Of a stretch of DNA of 64,000 nt, positions 7,665-56,038 are shown piece by piece (positions within the stretch are counted from its first letter, which is position 1; each line of letters begins with the position of its first letter). The notes below the pieces were generated by a model that was not told where the DNA came from, did not search any database, and saw nothing but the letters and a program-made list of their open reading frames with translations. Source of the DNA: a virus (lineage: Duplodnaviria; Caudoviricetes); the IMG/VR virus record IMGVR_UViG_3300029288_000085, positions 1-64,000 of that record. The stretch is one strand, 5' to 3'. A program made the translations under genes and the position numbers.

Positions 7665-7703
7665 GAAATAATAGAAAATGATTGGATTATCTGTAAAAAT
7701 AAT

Positions 7704-7784
7704 GGGAGAGATGCTAATTGGAAAAGCAGCAGACTGTAAATCTGTGGCCATAGTGCTATGTAGGTTCGAATCCTTCCTCTCCCA
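7704..7784 (+). tRNA. tRNA-Tyr(GTA), CCA not encoded
   Basis: Acceptor GGGAGAG/CTCTCCC; anticodon arm GCAGA-CTGTAAA-TCTGT; long variable arm; GGTTCGAATCC T arm. Confidence 0.92.
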
Positions 7785-7871
7785 ATATAATTTCTGTCAA
7801 GGGGGTTGACAAAATAAAGATGAGTTCTTCCTACCATGCTTTTTGCCAGGGGGTATAAATATATTTCTATA

Positions 7872-25673: not shown

Positions 25674-27149
25674 ATGAGCAAAAGAAAAATCAGTTCTACT
25701 ATGACAAAGAAAGTAAATCTTCCTACTCGTAAAACGTGGGAAGGTGCGAATGCTTATGAGCATTCCCTTGATAATCATTTAGAGTTCTTTTCTAAGGCAG
25801 GTTCCTTATTTGAGAATCGTAAATCATTTTATGGTGCTCAATCTGAGAGTACTGCATTATCTTTATTCCAACAGATGTGGGCTTCTGGAAAACCAGAATT
25901 AGCTATGAAATTATTGTTCTGGTTGCGTGATTGTAGAGGTGGGGCAGGAAATAGGTCAGGATTTAGAAGTATAATTCAATGGCTTGCTAGTTCTAATGAT
26001 TCTAAATGGCTTGATGCAAATCTAATTCTCGTACCAAAATATGGAAGGTGGGATGATTTGAGATCGTTGTTTGGAACAGAACTACAAACCCAAGCTGCTG
26101 AATTGTGGGGCAGTTCTGTATTAGCTAATGATGTATTAGCTACAAAATGGGCTGATAGGCGTGATTTACCTATCTTTTTCTACATTCGTTCTAAAATCAA
26201 TATTTCAGACATAGGAGAGTTTCGCAGATTATTAAGTAGTGTACGTAAACAGCATATTGTAGAACACAAGATGTGTTCAAGCCAATGGAATGAGATTCAA
26301 TATCCTCATGTTCCTTCTGTAGCAATGGCTAGATATACAAAAGCCTTTGGTCGTCACGATGAGCAAAGGTTCACACAGTATAAAGAAGATCTAAAATCTG
26401 GTAAACAGGAGATCAAAGCAGAGGTACTTTTTCCTCATGACTGTGTTAGAACTGCTCGATTTGGTGATGAAGCTATTGCTGACGCTCAATTTGACGCTCT
26501 CCCCAATTATTTAGGGGAGAGCAATGAGCGTATTATTGTAATAGCCGATACTTCAGGTTCAATGAATGTGGTTTTAAGTGGTTCTATTCATAATATGGAT
26601 ATATCACAAGGATTGGCATTATACTGTTCTTCAAGAATTCCAAAGGATAGTCCTTTTCATAAGAAGTTTATTGGTTTTGAGAGTGAAAGTCAGTTTAAAG
26701 ATTGGGAGGGAATGACATTTTCTGAAGCAATAGGTGATAGAGAAATATTTGATGGTGCTTGTGGTTCAACTAGAATTGATACGGCATTAGATCTTATTTT
26801 AAAAACAGCAAAATTCTTTAAGATTCCACAAGAATTAATGCCAACAACACTTCTTATAGTGTCAGATATGCAGTTCCATCAAGGTGGGTCATTATCTAAT
26901 GATACAGAAGTTGAAGCATGTCTTAAGAAATTCCAAGCTTCAGGATATAAACCACCTAAAGTAGTATACTGGAACCTAGAGGGGTATCAAGGGCAACAAG
27001 CTACAAAAGATATGAAGAATGTTGGTATGGTTTCAGGATTTTCACCTTCAATTTTAAAAGCTATTTTTGGTGGTACAGCATTTGATCCAATAAGCATAAT
27101 GCTTAGAGCTGTTGAGAAGTACGAGATTCAAACACCGTATGTTAATTAA
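25674..27149 (+). CDS. DUF2828-family TROVE/Ro60-like protein with C-terminal vWA domain
   Basis: LFWLRDCRGGAG.R, YGRWDDL, VPSVAM..Y.KAF.RHD; DTSGSM (MIDAS); SDMQF, YWNL, VSGFSP. Confidence 0.85.
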   Translation: MSKRKISSTMTKKVNLPTRKTWEGANAYEHSLDNHLEFFSKAGSLFENRKSFYGAQSESTALSLFQQMWASGKPELAMKLLFWLRDCRGGAGNRSGFRSIIQWLASSNDSKWLDANLILVPKYGRWDDLRSLFGTELQTQAAELWGSSVLANDVLATKWADRRDLPIFFYIRSKINISDIGEFRRLLSSVRKQHIVEHKMCSSQWNEIQYPHVPSVAMARYTKAFGRHDEQRFTQYKEDLKSGKQEIKAEVLFPHDCVRTARFGDEAIADAQFDALPNYLGESNERIIVIADTSGSMNVVLSGSIHNMDISQGLALYCSSRIPKDSPFHKKFIGFESESQFKDWEGMTFSEAIGDREIFDGACGSTRIDTALDLILKTAKFFKIPQELMPTTLLIVSDMQFHQGGSLSNDTEVEACLKKFQASGYKPPKVVYWNLEGYQGQQATKDMKNVGMVSGFSPSILKAIFGGTAFDPISIMLRAVEKYEIQTPYVN

Positions 27150-27415: not shown

Positions 27416-27464
27416 GAAATTAGGATGTTAAGATGGAAAGGTGGATTAAAGGGAGAAAGATATA

Positions 27465-28781
27465 ATGCAAAAAGATGTAAGAGCTATCAAACTTTACTTC
27501 CATAAACCTTTAGTTAAAGATTGGAAAGAAGTATCTCCTTTATTAAATGATATTAGTTACAAAGTGACTAGAGGATTAAATAGTTGTATGAGTGAGTGGT
27601 ATATGTGGCAATCAAATATTGAAAGGGCTAGAAAGAAAAATATAGAATTTAACTTGGCTGAAGCAAGGGAAAATGAAAGAACTAGACAATATAAAATGAT
27701 AAGAGAAATGTTTCCTGAATTATATTCAGGATTAGCTGACTCTATTAAAGAAACAGCATTTAAGAAGTGGAAGAATGAGTGTAAAGATGTTTTCTATGCT
27801 CAAAGAAAATCCTTATCTTCCTATAAAAAAGGAAAATTAATACCACTCCATGATCAATCTTATTCTGTTGGGAGGATAAATAAAGAAGTAATTCTCAATA
27901 TGAGTTTGTTTTCAAAGCAATCTGATTCTTCTAATAAAGATATGAAATTTGTATTAAAGACACAAAAGATAGATGGTAGTACAAGACATGTTTTAGAACA
28001 AATTTTAAAAGGTAATTTCGTTAAAAAGGCGGGTAGTCTAAAAAAAGATAGTCGTGGTAGAACATATGTAAATATTGCCTATGAAAAACCACATGACCCA
28101 ATCAAAGGTCTAGATCCAGAGAAGATTGTAGGTGTTGATTTAGGAGTTGCACATTCTTTTTATTGTGCTGTAAATTCAACATTAGATTCTATAAAAAGTG
28201 AAGATGGTCATCTTCTTGAAAGATTTCGGAATCAAATACGAAGACTTAGAAAGGGTATACAATCATCATATAGATTATCCAATAGTAGAAAAGGTAAAGG
28301 TAGAGTATATGCCTTAAAACCTTTAAACAGATTAAGAGACAAAGAAAAAAGATTTCGAGATACTTATTGTCATAACTGTAGTAGAATCATTGTCGATTTT
28401 GCAGCAAAAGTTGGTGCTGGTATAATCCAAATGGAAGATTTATCTAGTATGAAATCATTAAAAGTACATGATAAATTTCTTTCCGGGTGGCCTATTGCAG
28501 ATTTACAAAACAAAATTGAGTACAAAGCAAATGAGTATGGTATTGAAGTAAAAAAAGTAAATCCACAATATACAAGTCAAAGATGTTCATCTTGTGGTCA
28601 CATCTCATCTGAAAATCGAGAGAAGATGAGCAGGGAATTTAAGTGTGTTAGATGTGGGGTGGAGATGGATGCTGATTATAATGCTGCAAAGAACTTGAGT
28701 ATTAGAGGAATAGATGAAATCATCAAAAATGCGAACCTAAAGTTGACAGAAAATCTTAGTGAGGTTCGCACAAATGTGTAA
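27465..28781 (+). CDS. cas12f1: Cas12f1 (type V-F) miniature effector, RuvC intact
   Basis: VGVDLG, IQMEDL, VNPQYTSQRCSSCG, FKCVRCG, DADYNAAKN; collinear with AsCas12f1 as recalled (KP...DWKE N-terminus); adjacent tracrRNA and array. Confidence 0.88.
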   Translation: MQKDVRAIKLYFHKPLVKDWKEVSPLLNDISYKVTRGLNSCMSEWYMWQSNIERARKKNIEFNLAEARENERTRQYKMIREMFPELYSGLADSIKETAFKKWKNECKDVFYAQRKSLSSYKKGKLIPLHDQSYSVGRINKEVILNMSLFSKQSDSSNKDMKFVLKTQKIDGSTRHVLEQILKGNFVKKAGSLKKDSRGRTYVNIAYEKPHDPIKGLDPEKIVGVDLGVAHSFYCAVNSTLDSIKSEDGHLLERFRNQIRRLRKGIQSSYRLSNSRKGKGRVYALKPLNRLRDKEKRFRDTYCHNCSRIIVDFAAKVGAGIIQMEDLSSMKSLKVHDKFLSGWPIADLQNKIEYKANEYGIEVKKVNPQYTSQRCSSCGHISSENREKMSREFKCVRCGVEMDADYNAAKNLSIRGIDEIIKNANLKLTENLSEVRTNV

Positions 28782-28791
28782 CATACTGAGA
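28730..28791 (+). promoter_or_regulatory. CRISPR leader-like inverted repeat TGCGAACCT-N23-AGGTTCGCA plus degenerate distal IHF-like site
   Basis: IR at 28730-28738/28762-28770; TAACATACTGAGA at 28779-28791 (2 mismatches to YAANNNNTTGATW). Confidence 0.6.
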
Positions 28792-28799
28792 TCCTTATG

Positions 28800-28910
28800 G
28801 ATCTGGGTTTACTCACAGACCCTAGATGGAGAAAGTGATGTGGTAAGTCCTATGAAGTTAATAGGTTCGCATAATACGCTCCGTAAGATATCTAATATCA
28901 ACTACTTACA
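28800..28910 (+). ncRNA. Cas12f tracrRNA (approximate ends)
   Basis: TTTACTCACA (28808-28817, at a hairpin apex) is complementary to the repeat 3' end; ATATCTAAT (28888-28896) is complementary to the repeat middle; GGAGAAAGTG...ACGCTCCGTAAG core resembles the AsCas12f tracrRNA. Confidence 0.78.
28896..28908 (+). promoter_or_regulatory. IHF consensus site 10 bp upstream of the first repeat
   Basis: TATCAACTACTTA = WATCAANNNNTTR exactly. Confidence 0.65.
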
Positions 28911-28918
28911 TTAGTACA

Positions 28919-29089
28919 GTCACAACAAGTTGTGAAATTAGATATTGATGTGAGTAAATGACGGAGGAAAAGTTAACGTTGTTACAACAGTCACAACAAG
29001 TTGTGAAATTAGATATTGATGTGAGTAAAATATCAATCCTTGGAATTGTGTCACAACAAGTTGTGAAATTAGATATTGATGTGAGTATA
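28919..29089 (+). CRISPR. Mini CRISPR array: 3 repeats (~40 nt, GTCACAACAAGTTGTGAAATTAGATATTGATGTGAGTAAA), 2 spacers (31 and 20 nt)
   Basis: Repeats at 28919, 28990 and 29050; first 38 nt identical; internal palindrome TCACAAC/GTTGTGA. Confidence 0.92.
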
Positions 29090-29358
29090 TAATGAAGAAC
29101 CTGATGATGAAGCTAGAAAATGGGCTATAAATGTAATAAGTAAAAAAGAAATAGGAAAATGAGAATGATTTGCAATACAACAATAATATTGTTATTGTTA
29201 TTATTTTTTCTGATAACGGTTATTTTTCCACTTATCATTTTTAGCAAATCATTTAGTAAATTTGAAAATGATTTAATTTGTAACTTACGTAATCATGGTT
29301 ATACAGAAGAAGAAATTAATAATAAGTTAATTAAATTAAGGAGAATGAGAATTAAAGT

Positions 29359-30258
29359 ATGATAGATAGAGATCCGTATCTGTTAAATCCAGAAGATGGA
29401 ACAGAAATTAAAAGTGGTTTGAAGTCGTTTAGTGCAGGGGAATTGTGTCCTGTACGTAATAAGTTACTTATTGAAAATGGTAGATGTTTAGTATGTGAAG
29501 GGTTGAGACCTTTATGGCAATTTCAAAAAGGTTCTCAACAACGAGAGATTGCTGCAACAAAATCTCCTAAATTGAGTTTCTTTTTTGAGATAGTGCTACC
29601 AGCAAAACCTGAACAGCAGATGATACTTGAAACTGGTGCAAATGCTGGTAATGAGATTGTAGATGGTATTCTGAAGAAGGGGTGGGTTGATATTGTTCAT
29701 CCTAAAGCTGGTAAAGGTAGGGAGTTAACTCTAACAAAGTCGATGAATCAAAAAGGGTATCCTACCTATTCAATATCTCCTGTTTTAGAAAAGGCTGATT
29801 GGGATGTGCCAGATTCAGTATTGAATAACCTTCTCAATATGGATAAGATTATTGAAATGATGAAGGATGGTACTTTTCAAGAAGGGGTGAATTATTTAAA
29901 AGCATCTAGTCTTAAGCAAGATGATGTATTCAAATTTAGATTGCTTCCTGCACATGCAGAAGCAAAACTCTTTAATAAGAAGATTGGCATCGCTTGGATA
30001 TATCGTCATTTTGGTGGCGTTACAAAAGATGAAATTGATGGTAAGATTAAAGTAGATTTGACTCTGCCCCAGAAAGCAGAACAGAAGAAGACTGATGATG
30101 CTCCTCCATGGGAACAACCAAAGGCAAGTGTAGCACTGAGTAATCTTCCTGACACAAAAGAAAAATGTTGGGGGATGAAGAATCTATATGATGAAAGTGA
30201 TCCACAATGTCAGAAATGTAAAGATTTCAAAGGGTGTGGAAGAGAAGCATTGAAGTAA
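29359..30258 (+). CDS. gp32-like ssDNA-binding protein
   Basis: C..C, DIVHPKAGKGRELTLTK...YPTY; acidic DDAPPW; C-terminal Cys cluster. Confidence 0.55.
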   Translation: MIDRDPYLLNPEDGTEIKSGLKSFSAGELCPVRNKLLIENGRCLVCEGLRPLWQFQKGSQQREIAATKSPKLSFFFEIVLPAKPEQQMILETGANAGNEIVDGILKKGWVDIVHPKAGKGRELTLTKSMNQKGYPTYSISPVLEKADWDVPDSVLNNLLNMDKIIEMMKDGTFQEGVNYLKASSLKQDDVFKFRLLPAHAEAKLFNKKIGIAWIYRHFGGVTKDEIDGKIKVDLTLPQKAEQKKTDDAPPWEQPKASVALSNLPDTKEKCWGMKNLYDESDPQCQKCKDFKGCGREALK

Positions 30259-30740
30259 TGCTACAATACAAGGTGTTTGATCAATCGTTATATGATAAAA
30301 ACGATGGTCGTGGTAAAAAGGCGGCTATAAAGTTCTTCTTAAAGAGGGGATTTGAAGCAACTGAGAATCCTGATAAGTATGGGATTGATGTATTAATTTA
30401 TAAAGAAAATAAATTGCAGTTTATGATTGAGGTAGAAGTAAGAGGTGAAGATGTTTGGAATGGTAACATATTCAAATATTCTTCTTTACACATACCTTAT
30501 CGTAAACAAAGATTAATTAAGTTTGATACATTAATCCCAATACAATACTTTGTATTTAATAATACTCTCACATCATTTTTAACTTGTAATCTTAGGTTGT
30601 CTTGTTCTAGACAACCTATAGAAGTTTCAAATAAGTATATACCACAAGGGGAATACTTTTTTGACGTACCTCAGACTGAAATATGGCAATATGTATTAGA
30701 TAATAGTGGAATTTGGATGAATAAAGATATAGTGAGATAA
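30234..30740 (+). CDS. PD-(D/E)XK nuclease-like protein
   Basis: NPDKYGIDV...IEVEVR. Confidence 0.55.
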   Translation: MWKRSIEVMLQYKVFDQSLYDKNDGRGKKAAIKFFLKRGFEATENPDKYGIDVLIYKENKLQFMIEVEVRGEDVWNGNIFKYSSLHIPYRKQRLIKFDTLIPIQYFVFNNTLTSFLTCNLRLSCSRQPIEVSNKYIPQGEYFFDVPQTEIWQYVLDNSGIWMNKDIVR

Positions 30741-30836
30741 CCTCTCACTAATAGAAGGGTTATGGTAAAATTAGGTGAGAGTTAAAGCGGTTGTGGGCAA
30801 ACACACTAAATCCTATTTATCATAACCCTTTCTTTT
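30730..30836 (+). ncRNA. Structured intergenic element (attenuator or ncRNA candidate)
   Basis: 16-bp stem 30754-30769/30816-30831 plus TAGG/CCTA, enclosing two small hairpins; 8-bp hairpin at 30730-30750. Confidence 0.5.
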
Positions 30837-31902
30837 GAGGTAAAGTATAATGGAATTTACTATTAATTATAATTATGGTCTTTCTGTTTCCCCAGTTTCT
30901 CTTTTTATAAATTATTCTCATAACCTATATGATTTTGATTTTATCTATGATAAAATTTCTAAATCAGAAATAAGAGATATTATACTATTCAATTTTGATA
31001 AATCTGATTATAAAGGTCTAGTCTGGCTAACTCCAAGATTGATATTGAATGGTAAGATAGTTTCTTTAGTTTTTAAGAATAGCTTGGAAACTGATTTAAA
31101 GGCAGTAAGTAGGATAATTATAGTTGATAATCCTAATGTCTCACAGTTTTTCTCCTTCCTAAGAGAAAGGGATATATTAATATATAACGGAGGTAAAATA
31201 GACGAGTTACTTTCGCTAAGAAATCAGATAATTACTCATGAAGTAAAATCAATTATTATGTTTGATTCAAAATCAGTTGATGGTGCAAAACTAATAGAAC
31301 TAGGAGTTTTTGACATAACACCTTTTGAACATATAGAATTAATCTATGGAGGATAAGTATGAGTTGGTTCGGGGAAAATATAAAAGAAGACGGACGAGCA
31401 AAAATAAATGAAGCATTAGAAGGATTTAAGAAGACTATTGAAATTCTAATAGAAGGTAGAAATAGATGTAAAGAACAGATTTCTATAAATGAGGGGGAAA
31501 TGGAAACTCTTTTCTCTGAAAATAAAGATCTCACCTTTAATGTGGAAAGAGCAGATAGAATAGCAAAGAAACTTGAAGAATTATTGGCGTAACTTACGTC
31601 TTCTACGTAGGAGATAGAGAGATGAAAAGAACTGGGATATTTGCAACGGATGAAGAAGCAAGGGAAATTGGAGAACTTCATGATCAAGCACAGAAAACTC
31701 CAGTGATTGCACTAACAATGATGCATGGCTTGAGTACAGGAGGATTTTCTGAGGAAGCATGGACTCTCGTAAAAAAGACAGTACATAAGTATGCTCTTGT
31801 TCATGGTCTTCCTGAGATTGAAGGATATTATGGGTTTGACCGTTCAAATAATGAGTTTGTCTCAGTATAAAATGTAATCTTCTAACCTATCAGGATTGTA
31901 TA

Positions 31903-55966: not shown

Positions 55967-56038
55967 GCGGGGATAGACTTAACGTAAAGGACTTGCTTTC
56001 CAAGCAGGAGGTTGATAGCTCGTTGCTATCTCCCCGCT
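55967..56038 (+). tRNA. Atypical tRNA-Gly(TCC), CCA not encoded
   Basis: GCGGGGA/TCCCCGC + U73; CTTGC-TTTCCAA-GCAGG; T stem GATAG/CTATC but loop CTCGTTG; D loop lacks GG. Confidence 0.75.

What the first reader, a model, noticed from the sequence alone, without database searches (positions are those of the whole stretch)
27465..29089. Complete phage-borne miniature Cas12f1 system with tracrRNA and an unusual ~40-nt repeat
SEEN: a 438-aa effector with intact RuvC D-E-D and Zn finger. The downstream tracrRNA has two anti-repeat blocks; the 5' one sits at a hairpin apex (pseudoknot-type pairing with the repeat 3' end). Three ~40-nt repeats carry their own TCACAAC/GTTGTGA palindrome. No cas1/cas2/cas4 in the window. 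KNOWN: this layout matches AsCas12f1-type V-F loci. INFERENCE: an active compact nuclease for inter-phage competition or host targeting. The tracrRNA looks only ~110 nt, which would be attractive for genome editing.
Basis: partly seen in the sequence, partly recalled or inferred. Interest (0 to 1): 0.78.

Follow-up and report, generated by a model that had tools for sequence, protein, structure and literature searches.

The report
Phage-borne miniature Cas12f CRISPR module
A complete 144-kb bacteriophage carries a small, intact CRISPR nuclease (Cas12f, 438 residues) with its helper RNA and a three-repeat guide array; it is real and probably works, but phage cassettes of this kind have been described before and recur in this scan.

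Summary
ORF 27465-28781 (+) encodes a 438-aa protein that matches solved AsCas12f structures over its full length (phmmer E 4e-65; predicted fold TM 0.68-0.71). The RuvC residues D225/E324/D404 and the CCCC zinc ribbon are intact.

Downstream lies a structured RNA gene homologous to the Cas12f1 tracrRNA. It has strong covariation across 37 loci and weakly matches the AsCas12f locus. Three exact 38-40-nt repeats and two spacers (31 and 20 nt) follow.

The apex of tracrRNA hairpin 1 (28808-28817) is a perfect 10-nt complement of the repeat 3' end. This pseudoknot pairing covaries in 15 of 15 related loci.

The whole DTR-bounded phage genome has no Cas1, Cas2, Cas4 or Y1 transposase. That is normal for this clade (former type V-U3).

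Three corrections:
- A conserved stem overlapping the ORF 3' end suggests the natural tracrRNA is about 173 nt, not about 110.
- Self-complementary repeats are a family trait, so the repeat is not unusual.
- The 3' anti-repeat block is only marginally above chance.

No protospacer was found, so the biological target is unknown.

Verdict: a new member of a known kind. The same scan has noted comparable phage Cas12f modules in at least 26 other genomes.

The parts
27450..27455 (+). Shine-Dalgarno-like AGGGAG, 9 nt before the ATG of cas12f
   Evidence: Read directly from the sequence.
27465..28781 (+). cas12f1 gene, 438 aa, AsCas12f clade. RuvC residues D225, E324 and D404; TNB zinc ribbon C374, C377, C394 and C397.
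   Evidence: Pfam Cas12f1-like_TNB E 7.5e-25. PDB phmmer to AsCas12f (8j12, 8dzj, 7wju), E about 4e-65 over residues 9-422. Residues conserved in A1. AlphaFold2 model pLDDT 85.5; Foldseek best hits AsCas12f at TM 0.68-0.71.
28730..28770 (+). Candidate tracrRNA stem 1: TGCGAACCT (28730-28738) pairs with AGGTTCGCA (28762-28770), 23-nt loop. It overlaps the last codons of cas12f.
   Evidence: The same inverted repeat lies 32-37 nt upstream of hairpin 1 in L009, L015, L017 and L011, whether coding or not. L014 has a stem of different sequence at the same spacing. Distant loci have GTGCGAA/TTCGCAC just before hairpin 1. Membership in the RNA is inferred.
28789..28804 (+). Small hairpin AGATCC-TTAT-GGATCT in the linker between stem 1 and hairpin 1. 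Its sequence is not conserved.
   Evidence: MFE fold. From my own reading, L009 has a hairpin of different sequence at this place.
28805..28822 (+). tracrRNA hairpin 1. Its apex, 28808-28817 (TTTACTCACA), is the short anti-repeat that forms the pseudoknot with the repeat 3' end.
   Evidence: Helix 1 is 98.6% paired with 5 of 6 pairs covarying in 37 loci. The loop is complementary to the last nucleotides of the repeat in 15 of 15 loci, with different sequences; permutation 1 of 2000.
28826..28884 (+). Conserved tracrRNA core. Closing stem ATGGAG (28826-28831) / CTCCGT (28879-28884); the invariant GAGAAAGTG and ACGCTC motifs; inner stems 28838-28843/28867-28872 and 28849-28853/28861-28865.
   Evidence: Covariance model R1 scores 99 bits, E 6e-18, with a single copy in the genome. 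Covariation is shown. The homologous motifs GCCGAGAAGTG and AACGCTCGGTAAGG occur in the AsCas12f locus L188.
28888..28902 (+). Candidate long anti-repeat: ATATCTAAT plus CAAC, pairing with repeat 28937-28945 and 28929-28932.
   Evidence: RNAduplex and cofold. It is in the position expected from AsCas12f but only marginally above chance: 17 of 300 shuffles do as well.
28919..28958 (+). CRISPR repeat 1 (40 nt), with the 5' palindrome TCACAAC/GTTGTGA
28959..28989 (+). Spacer 1 (31 nt). Target unknown.
   Evidence: No match in the phage's own genome at up to 7 mismatches. No exact match in IMG/VR. Nothing significant in INPHARED or PLSDB.
28990..29029 (+). CRISPR repeat 2 (40 nt, identical to repeat 1)
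29030..29049 (+). Spacer 2 (20 nt). Target unknown.
   Evidence: No self-match at up to 4 mismatches. No exact match in IMG/VR.
29050..29089 (+). CRISPR repeat 3, the terminal and slightly degenerate copy (GAGTATA instead of GAGTAAA)

Best explanation
This is a self-contained type V-F1 (Cas12f1, AsCas12f clade, former V-U3) CRISPR-Cas cassette carried by a complete 144-kb phage.

Shown here:
- An intact 438-aa Cas12f1.
- A single-copy gene for a structured RNA homologous to Cas12f1 tracrRNAs.
- A 3-repeat, 2-spacer array on the same strand, with the degenerate repeat at the far end.

Inferred mechanism:
- cas12f, the tracrRNA and the array are read in one direction. They are probably one transcript, because only 23 nt separate the stop codon from hairpin 1 and only 16 nt separate the anti-repeat from repeat 1.
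- The tracrRNA probably runs from about 28730, or at least 28805, to about 28902.
- It pairs with each repeat through a 10-bp pseudoknot helix (28808-28817 with the last 10 nt of the repeat), and probably through a 9+4-bp long stem.
- By homology, a Cas12f homodimer binds this duplex, recognises a 5' PAM and cuts double-stranded DNA matching the 20-31-nt guides.
- With no adaptation genes and only two guides, the phage most likely uses it as a small fixed arsenal against a competing mobile element or phage in the same host. Host DNA is the less likely target.
For: Protein:
- Full-length match to solved AsCas12f, E about 4e-65, against 5e-12 for ISDra2 TnpB.
- Foldseek TM 0.68-0.71 to AsCas12f, SpCas12f1 and OsCas12f, against 0.39-0.46 to TnpBs.
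- D225, E324, D404 and the CCCC ribbon are conserved.

Clade:
- 31 of 34 dereplicated relatives with tblastn scores of 200 bits or more have an array within 1.2 kb.

tracrRNA:
- Model R1 finds one copy in the genome, at 28788-28920.
- It also finds dozens of copies in other Cas12f loci, all but one (a weak minus-strand match in L009/L010) on the gene's strand and, where checked, beside the gene or array. These include the AsCas12f locus at the equivalent place.
- 93.5% of cells are paired, against 29-44% when partners are slid. 216 double-change cells against 26-48.

Pseudoknot:
- Loop-to-repeat-end complementarity in 15 of 15 loci with different sequences; permutation 1 of 2000.
- The short repeat/anti-repeat pseudoknot is known to be essential in AsCas12f1 (PMC11246509).

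Phage context:
- 127-bp DTR, CheckV 100%.
- Replication genes on both sides.
- Only cas12f and the tracrRNA are shared with relatives; the flanks are unrelated.
- V-U3 loci lack adaptation genes as a rule, and the As and Sp enzymes interfere with plasmids in E. coli (PMC7229846).
Against: - There are no expression data.
- No protospacer was found in the phage itself, IMG/VR, INPHARED or PLSDB. Target, PAM and biological role are therefore unknown.
- The long anti-repeat is only marginally better than chance and is not visibly conserved in the closest relative, L009.
- The repeat can also fold on itself, and a second complement of the repeat end lies at 28903-28911. The real pairing scheme may differ.
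- Spacer lengths are uneven (31 and 20 nt).
Confidence: 0.8

Rival explanations
1. The cassette is functional but is not an immune or competition weapon. The two fixed guides direct Cas12f to the host chromosome or to a resident prophage or plasmid as part of the phage's own programme, for example host shut-off or removal of a defence element.
For: There are no adaptation genes anywhere in the genome and only two guides. The cassette sits inside the replication gene block. Neither guide matches any viral contig in IMG/VR or INPHARED, which fits a non-viral target.
Against: No host genome is known and no host match was found. The RuvC site is intact, so cutting rather than mere binding is expected. 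Absence of hits in incomplete databases is weak evidence.
Confidence: 0.12
2. The cassette is a recently acquired, decaying or silent passenger. The protein is still intact, but the array is a remnant and the guides are obsolete.
For: The array is tiny, with uneven spacers (31 and 20 nt) and a degenerate last repeat. The 8 nt before repeats 1 and 2 are alike, which hints at irregular duplication. No targets were found. The closest relative, L009, has only one repeat-like unit.
Against: The ORF is full length with every catalytic and zinc residue. Three repeats keep an identical 38-nt core. The tracrRNA keeps every conserved helix and a perfect 10-nt complement to the repeat. Mini-arrays are the usual state of phage-borne systems.
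Confidence: 0.06
3. It is an IS200/IS605- or IS607-type TnpB with an omega RNA, that is, a transposon homing nuclease and not a CRISPR effector.
For: NCBIfam's generic guided_TnpB model scores 193 bits and Pfam OrfB_IS605 gives a weak hit. The RNA scaffold seems to start inside the ORF 3' end, as omega RNAs do.
Against: No Y1 transposase anywhere in the genome. The IS200_TnpB and IS607_TnpB models score 79 and 66 bits against cut-offs of 425 and 350. A three-repeat array with separate spacers is present. Nearest relatives are array-associated. Sequence and fold are far closer to Cas12f1 than to TnpB.
Confidence: 0.02

Closest known systems
AsCas12f1 system (Acidibacillus sulfuroxidans / Sulfoacidibacillus thermotolerans Y002; type V-F1, former V-U3; PDB 8j12, 8dzj, 7wju)
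   Same: - Same gene order, cas12f then tracrRNA then array on one strand; compare L188.
- Similar size, 438 against 422 aa.
- 34-36% identity over the full length, and the same fold.
- Identical catalytic and zinc motifs.
- Homologous tracrRNA core (GAGAA(A)GTG ... ACGCTCNGTAAG).
- A hairpin-1 loop that pairs with the repeat 3' end.
- V-U3 loci, the group that includes AsCas12f1, lack adaptation genes (PMC7229846).
   Different: - Encoded by a phage, not a Bacillota chromosome.
- 3 repeats instead of at least 19.
- 40-nt repeat against about 29-36 nt.
- Pseudoknot helix of 10 bp against 5 bp (GTTCA:TGAAC).
- The core from hairpin 1 to the anti-repeat is about 98 nt against about 131 nt. The two hairpins that follow the core in the As locus are missing.
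- Only 16 nt lie between anti-repeat and first repeat, against about 140 nt.
- A conserved stem overlaps the ORF end here; I did not see one in L188.
Virus-encoded compact type V systems (Cas14j/k-like and Cas12f-like effectors, CasPhi/Cas12j, Caslambda, Cas12p 'hacker', Cas12r)
   Same: Phage genomes carrying a small Cas12-family nuclease with a mini-array and no adaptation module, presumed to act against rival elements. Sources: PMC12607003, bioRxiv 10.1101/2025.01.20.633832 and bioRxiv 10.64898/2026.04.20.719267. Al-Shayeb et al. 2022 (Cell) is cited in those papers but I did not read it.
   Different: CasPhi, Caslambda, Cas12p and Cas12r are different, larger families (500-800 aa), and most have no tracrRNA of this type. 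Cas12p chains score only TM 0.42-0.43 against this model. This protein is a plain member of the cellular AsCas12f clade.
Other phage Cas12f mini-modules noted earlier in this scan (for example e1-5325086, e1-3425909, e1-3669539)
   Same: A phage of about 140 kb with an intact Cas12f, a tracrRNA abutting a short array, and no cas1/cas2.
   Different: Those are on other DNA, and the proteins are not close: nothing above 54% identity was found anywhere. Here there are no orphan tracrRNA copies and no self-targeting guide, both of which were reported for some of those.
TnpB with omega RNA (ISDra2; PDB 8exa, 8h1j) and TranC intermediates (LaTranC, PDB 9jfo)
   Same: The same RuvC-TNB core. The guide-RNA scaffold is encoded at, and apparently overlaps, the 3' end of the nuclease gene.
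   Different: No transposase or IS ends. The guide is split into a tracrRNA plus an array of repeats. Similarity is much lower: E 5e-12 and 4e-8, TM 0.39-0.45.

Membership tests
Type V-F1 CRISPR-Cas12f1 (AsCas12f / former V-U3 clade) | Effector of about 400-550 aa with a TnpB-like WED/REC/RuvC/TNB architecture, closest to characterised Cas12f1 proteins | tested here: met
   phmmer E about 4e-65 over the full length to AsCas12f; then SpCas12f1 (9i8y) 1e-56 and OsCas12f (9nzq) 2e-53. Foldseek TM 0.68-0.71. Pfam Cas12f1-like_TNB.
Type V-F1 CRISPR-Cas12f1 (AsCas12f / former V-U3 clade) | Intact RuvC D-E-D triad and CCCC zinc ribbon | tested here: met
   D225, E324, D404, C374, C377, C394 and C397 align to the identical AsCas12f motifs and are invariant or nearly so in A1.
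Type V-F1 CRISPR-Cas12f1 (AsCas12f / former V-U3 clade) | An adjacent CRISPR array on the same strand | tested here: met
   Three repeats with an identical 38-nt core, 138 nt downstream of the stop codon. 31 of 34 close relatives also have arrays.
Type V-F1 CRISPR-Cas12f1 (AsCas12f / former V-U3 clade) | A tracrRNA gene between nuclease and array whose scaffold is homologous to known Cas12f1 tracrRNAs | tested here: met
   R1 scores 99 bits here and 25.5 bits (E 2e-4 within the locus) at the equivalent place in the AsCas12f locus. Covariation across 37 loci.
Type V-F1 CRISPR-Cas12f1 (AsCas12f / former V-U3 clade) | A short repeat/anti-repeat pseudoknot plus a long repeat/anti-repeat stem (PMC11246509) | tested here: inconclusive
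   The pseudoknot is met: 10 bp, covarying in 15 of 15 loci. The long stem (9+4 bp) is present but only marginally above chance, 17 of 300 shuffles. In sister loci the repeat folds on itself instead.
Type V-F1 CRISPR-Cas12f1 (AsCas12f / former V-U3 clade) | The RNAs are expressed and processed; a homodimer assembles on one guide; dsDNA cleavage is PAM-dependent | not testable with these tools
No protospacer is available to infer a PAM. Biochemistry is needed.
IS200/IS605 or IS607 TnpB (omega-RNA-guided transposon nuclease) | Association with a TnpA transposase and IS ends, and a score above the family cut-off | tested here: not met
   No Y1_Tnp hit in the whole genome. NF038281 scores 78.7 bits against a cut-off of 425, and NF038280 scores 66.4 against 350.
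Cas12f2 (Cas14b) | Score above the NCBIfam NF049972 cut-off | tested here: not met
   119.6 bits against a cut-off of 450.
Bacteriophage genome (context claim) | A complete viral genome with terminal repeats and phage hallmark genes around the locus | tested here: met
   144,334 bp, 127-bp DTR, CheckV 100%. PHROG hits to DNA polymerase, primase-helicase, clamp loader and UvsX-like recombinase.

The most novel reading that the evidence does not exclude
The window and its nearest relative (L009) may define a Cas12f1 subclade whose guide RNA is still organised like a TnpB omega RNA. Three features would mark it:
- The scaffold starts with a conserved stem inside the nuclease ORF's 3' end.
- The scaffold runs with no room for a separate promoter into the first repeat, giving a natural single-guide transcript.
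- The RNA is locked by an unusually long pseudoknot of 10-11 bp, against 4-6 bp elsewhere in the family.

In L009 there is only one repeat and one guide. The subclade would then be a living intermediate between the omega RNA and the split tracrRNA/crRNA, kept by phages as a fixed-guide weapon.
Probability: 0.25. Interest if true: 0.45.

Novelty: new member of a known kind. Interest (0 to 1): 0.3.

Why it matters
It adds one more natural, apparently intact 438-aa Cas12f1 orthologue with its predicted guide-RNA scaffold. The protein is only 34-36% identical to AsCas12f and 54% to anything in the databases searched. It comes from a low-GC phage whose replication proteins have no close relative in INPHARED (at most about 25% identity). 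This could interest the search for compact genome editors, for three reasons: the conserved core is short (98 nt), the pseudoknot helix is long (10 bp), and the PAM is unknown. Biologically, it is another case of a phage carrying a nuclease-competent CRISPR cassette without adaptation genes. Neither point is new in kind.

Tried and rejected
- Spacer targets: none found. Searched the phage's own genome (up to 7 and 4 mismatches), IMG/VR by exact match, INPHARED (only chance 16-18-mers) and PLSDB.
- The repeat elsewhere: no exact match in IMG/VR, so no host array was identified.
- Host and related phages: megablast of 9 kb against INPHARED found nothing. The DNA polymerase is at most 25% identical to known phage polymerases. 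The downstream 299-aa gene has no relative in IMG/VR.
- Orphan tracrRNA copies elsewhere in the phage, a lead from an earlier scan note: none.
- Conserved partner genes next to cas12f in relatives: none.
- Promoter and terminator scan: uninformative in this AT-rich DNA.
- Rfam: only tRNAs in the window.
- The Cas12p 'hacker' phage nuclease was considered and rejected as a relative. It is a 500-700-aa family and matches at only TM 0.42-0.43.
- Complex prediction for the homodimer was not run.
It was rerun from the stored files.
Full report
**Context.** The window is the first 64 kb of a 144,334-bp IMG/VR virus record with direct terminal repeats, rated 100% complete. I found the repeat to be 127 bp. 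Almost all ORFs are on the + strand at about 32% GC. The genes around the finding hit phage families: DNA polymerase, primase-helicase, clamp loader, a UvsX-like recombinase, and a Ro60-like 'RNA-binding protein' immediately upstream. No known phage is close. Megablast against INPHARED found nothing, and the polymerase is at most 25% identical to any known phage polymerase. The 'phage-borne' claim therefore holds.

**The protein.** ORF 27465-28781 gives 438 aa (P0001).
- Pfam finds the Cas12f1-like TNB domain (E 7.5e-25) and a sub-threshold OrfB_IS605 hit.
- NCBIfam gives only the generic guided_TnpB model above cut-off. The IS200 TnpB, IS607 TnpB and Cas12f2 models are far below theirs.
- Against PDB sequences the best matches are the five AsCas12f entries, E about 4e-65 over residues 9-422. 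SpCas12f1 (1e-56), OsCas12f (2e-53), CnCas12f1 (8hr5, 3e-38) and Un1Cas12f1 (about 1e-35) follow. ISDra2 TnpB reaches only 5e-12.
- The alignment places GVDLGV, IQMEDL and DADYNAA on the identical AsCas12f motifs.
- In an alignment of 22 relatives, E324, D404 and the four cysteines are invariant and D225 is nearly so.
- An AlphaFold2 model (pLDDT 85.5) matches AsCas12f chains best (TM 0.68-0.71). TnpB structures match at 0.39-0.46.
- The protein is unique in the 5.8-billion-protein collection. The nearest relative is 54% identical and the next are about 43%.

**Is the clade CRISPR-associated?** I fetched about 240 related loci from metagenomes, IMG/VR and genomes. Among dereplicated relatives, 5 of 6 scoring above 250 bits and 26 of 28 scoring 200-250 bits have a repeat array within 1.2 kb. 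The closest examples are L015 (5 repeats), L011 (2), L014 (19, in a Desulfococcaceae MAG) and L016/L017. Many relatives sit on viral contigs. The phage genome has no Y1 transposase, Cas1, Cas2 or Cas4. Karvelis et al. state that type V-U3 systems, the group that includes AsCas12f1, lack adaptation proteins, and that the As and Sp enzymes interfere with plasmids in E. coli (PMC7229846).

**The array.** There are three copies with an identical 38-nt core at 28919, 28990 and 29050. Copies 1 and 2 extend to 40 nt, ending GAGTAAA. Copy 3 ends GAGTATA, the usual degenerate distal repeat, which fits transcription from the cas12f side. The spacers are 31 nt (28959-28989) and 20 nt (29030-29049). Relatives' repeats are 36-38 nt and begin with the same G(T/C)(G/C)ACAA motif.

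**The tracrRNA.**
- The 137-nt gap between the stop codon and repeat 1 aligns with the equivalent gaps of six relatives. It shares invariant blocks, GAGAAAGTG and ACGCTC, and a consensus fold in which 16 of 25 pairs show compensatory changes.
- A covariance model built from this alignment (R1) finds exactly one copy in the whole phage, at 28788-28920 (99 bits).
- R1 also finds dozens of further copies in more distant Cas12f loci. All but one (a weak minus-strand match in L009/L010) lie on the gene's strand and, where I checked positions, beside the gene or array.
- One of these is the Sulfoacidibacillus thermotolerans Y002 locus that encodes AsCas12f1. The match (L188 3773-3887, 25.5 bits) lies just after the gene and shows the motifs GCCGAGAAGTG and AACGCTCGGTAAGG.
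- On 37 aligned matches, 93.5% of cells are paired against 29-44% when partners are slid. There are 216 double-change cells against 26-48. The caveat is that this alignment was fitted to the model.

**The pseudoknot.**
- In the window, the apex of hairpin 1 (28808-28817, TTTACTCACA) is the exact complement of the last 10 nt of the repeat.
- In L009 the equivalent loop (GTGAACCAGCA) complements its own repeat-like end (TGTTGGTTCAC).
- Across 15 loci with well-defined repeats, including AsCas12f (GTTCA:TGAAC), the loop always complements the extreme 3' end of that locus's own repeat. About ten different sequences are involved.
- Shuffling the loop-repeat partnerships matches the observed mean in 1 of 2000 trials.
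- This is the short repeat/anti-repeat pseudoknot described for Cas12f1 and shown to be essential in AsCas12f1 (PMC11246509).
- The window and L009 differ from the rest only in helix length, 10-11 bp against 4-6 bp. That explains the 4 extra nucleotides of the 40-nt repeat.

**The second anti-repeat.** ATATCTAAT (28888-28896) plus CAAC (28899-28902) can pair with repeat 28937-28945 and 28929-28932, and a trans cofold uses both blocks. The position is what AsCas12f predicts. But 17 of 300 shuffled repeats pair as well, and I could not find a conserved counterpart in L009. In the sister group (L011, L014) the repeat folds end to end on itself, with z about -4.4, so the long stem there may be made within the repeat. 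The window repeat does this only weakly (z -1.4). I regard this block as plausible but not established.

**Length of the tracrRNA.**
- An inverted repeat, TGCGAACCT (28730-28738) and AGGTTCGCA (28762-28770), overlaps the last codons of cas12f.
- The same stem lies 32-37 nt upstream of hairpin 1 in L009, L015, L017 and L011. In some of them its 3' arm is coding and in others it is not.
- L014 has a stem of different sequence at the same spacing.
- Distant loci carry GTGCGAA/TTCGCAC 3-8 nt before hairpin 1.
- The natural RNA therefore probably starts inside the ORF and is about 173 nt long. This resembles an omega RNA and fits the roughly 200-nt guide RNAs reported for Cas12f1 (abstract of PMC12255294, seen).
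- The conserved core from hairpin 1 to the anti-repeat is 98 nt. The matching part of the As locus is about 131 nt and has two extra hairpins.

**Cassette and targets.** Only cas12f and the tracrRNA are shared with relatives. The flanking genes are unrelated, so this is a self-contained cassette. Neither spacer matches the phage itself, IMG/VR, INPHARED or PLSDB, and the repeat occurs nowhere else in IMG/VR. The role in inter-phage competition or host targeting therefore remains an inference. Expression could not be examined.

**Novelty.** Virus-encoded Cas14/Cas12f-like effectors with mini-arrays are already in the literature (PMC12607003; Al-Shayeb et al. 2022 is cited there). Other compact phage Cas12 families have been characterised (bioRxiv 10.1101/2025.01.20.633832; 10.64898/2026.04.20.719267). 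This scan's own notes list phage Cas12f mini-modules in at least 26 other genomes. I checked two leads from those notes here, orphan tracrRNA copies and self-targeting guides, and both were negative. The finding is a well-formed new member of a known kind. Its subclade-specific RNA details are the long pseudoknot, the ORF-overlapping stem, and the scaffold abutting the array.

Noticed in passing
Its flanks hold repeated GGTTTCAGCAAA-type units at 27023, 27222, 27288 and 27367. It may be a Y-RNA-like module next to the CRISPR cassette.
   Followed up: no
L009 4520-4700 (and L010): The closest relative of the protein (54% identity) has the tracrRNA homologue followed by a single repeat-like unit and one putative guide, with no array. 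The same locus has a weak second match to the tracrRNA model on the minus strand upstream of the gene (2808-2907, E 0.004).
   Followed up: partly
window 28903-28911 versus 28948-28956: The 16-nt gap between anti-repeat and repeat 1 contains TACTTACAT, a second complement (with one G:U) of the repeat 3' end. In a cis fold it pairs with repeat 1 and would compete with the pseudoknot.
   Followed up: partly
window 28911-28918 and 28982-28989: The 8 nt before repeats 1 and 2 are alike (TTAGTACA and TTACAACA), so the first two units are similar over 48 nt. The end of spacer 1 (GTTGTTACAAC) is also palindromic and resembles the repeat's 5' hairpin. This hints at irregular duplication rather than canonical spacer insertion.
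   Followed up: no
L011 7493-7530, L014 7515-7550: Repeats of the sister group fold into whole-repeat hairpins (-12.8 and -14.3 kcal/mol, z about -4.4). Their tracrRNA tails show no obvious long anti-repeat, so the long stem may be supplied within the crRNA in these loci.
   Followed up: partly
L014 565-5830: The Desulfococcaceae MAG relative, with a 19-repeat array, sits next to AAA_15/AAA_21 plus DUF4276, a dynamin-like protein and a rhomboid protease gene. This looks like a defence island.
   Followed up: no
window 7703-7785 and 55967-56038: There are two tRNA genes in the phage. ARAGORN and Rfam both find tRNA-Tyr (GTA); the second is found by Rfam only, at 40.5 bits.
   Followed up: no
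window 29159-29362: A small ORF (67 aa) directly after the array begins with a strongly hydrophobic, membrane-like segment. It and the next three ORFs (29359-31356) have no PHROG family and no counterpart next to cas12f in relatives.
   Followed up: partly
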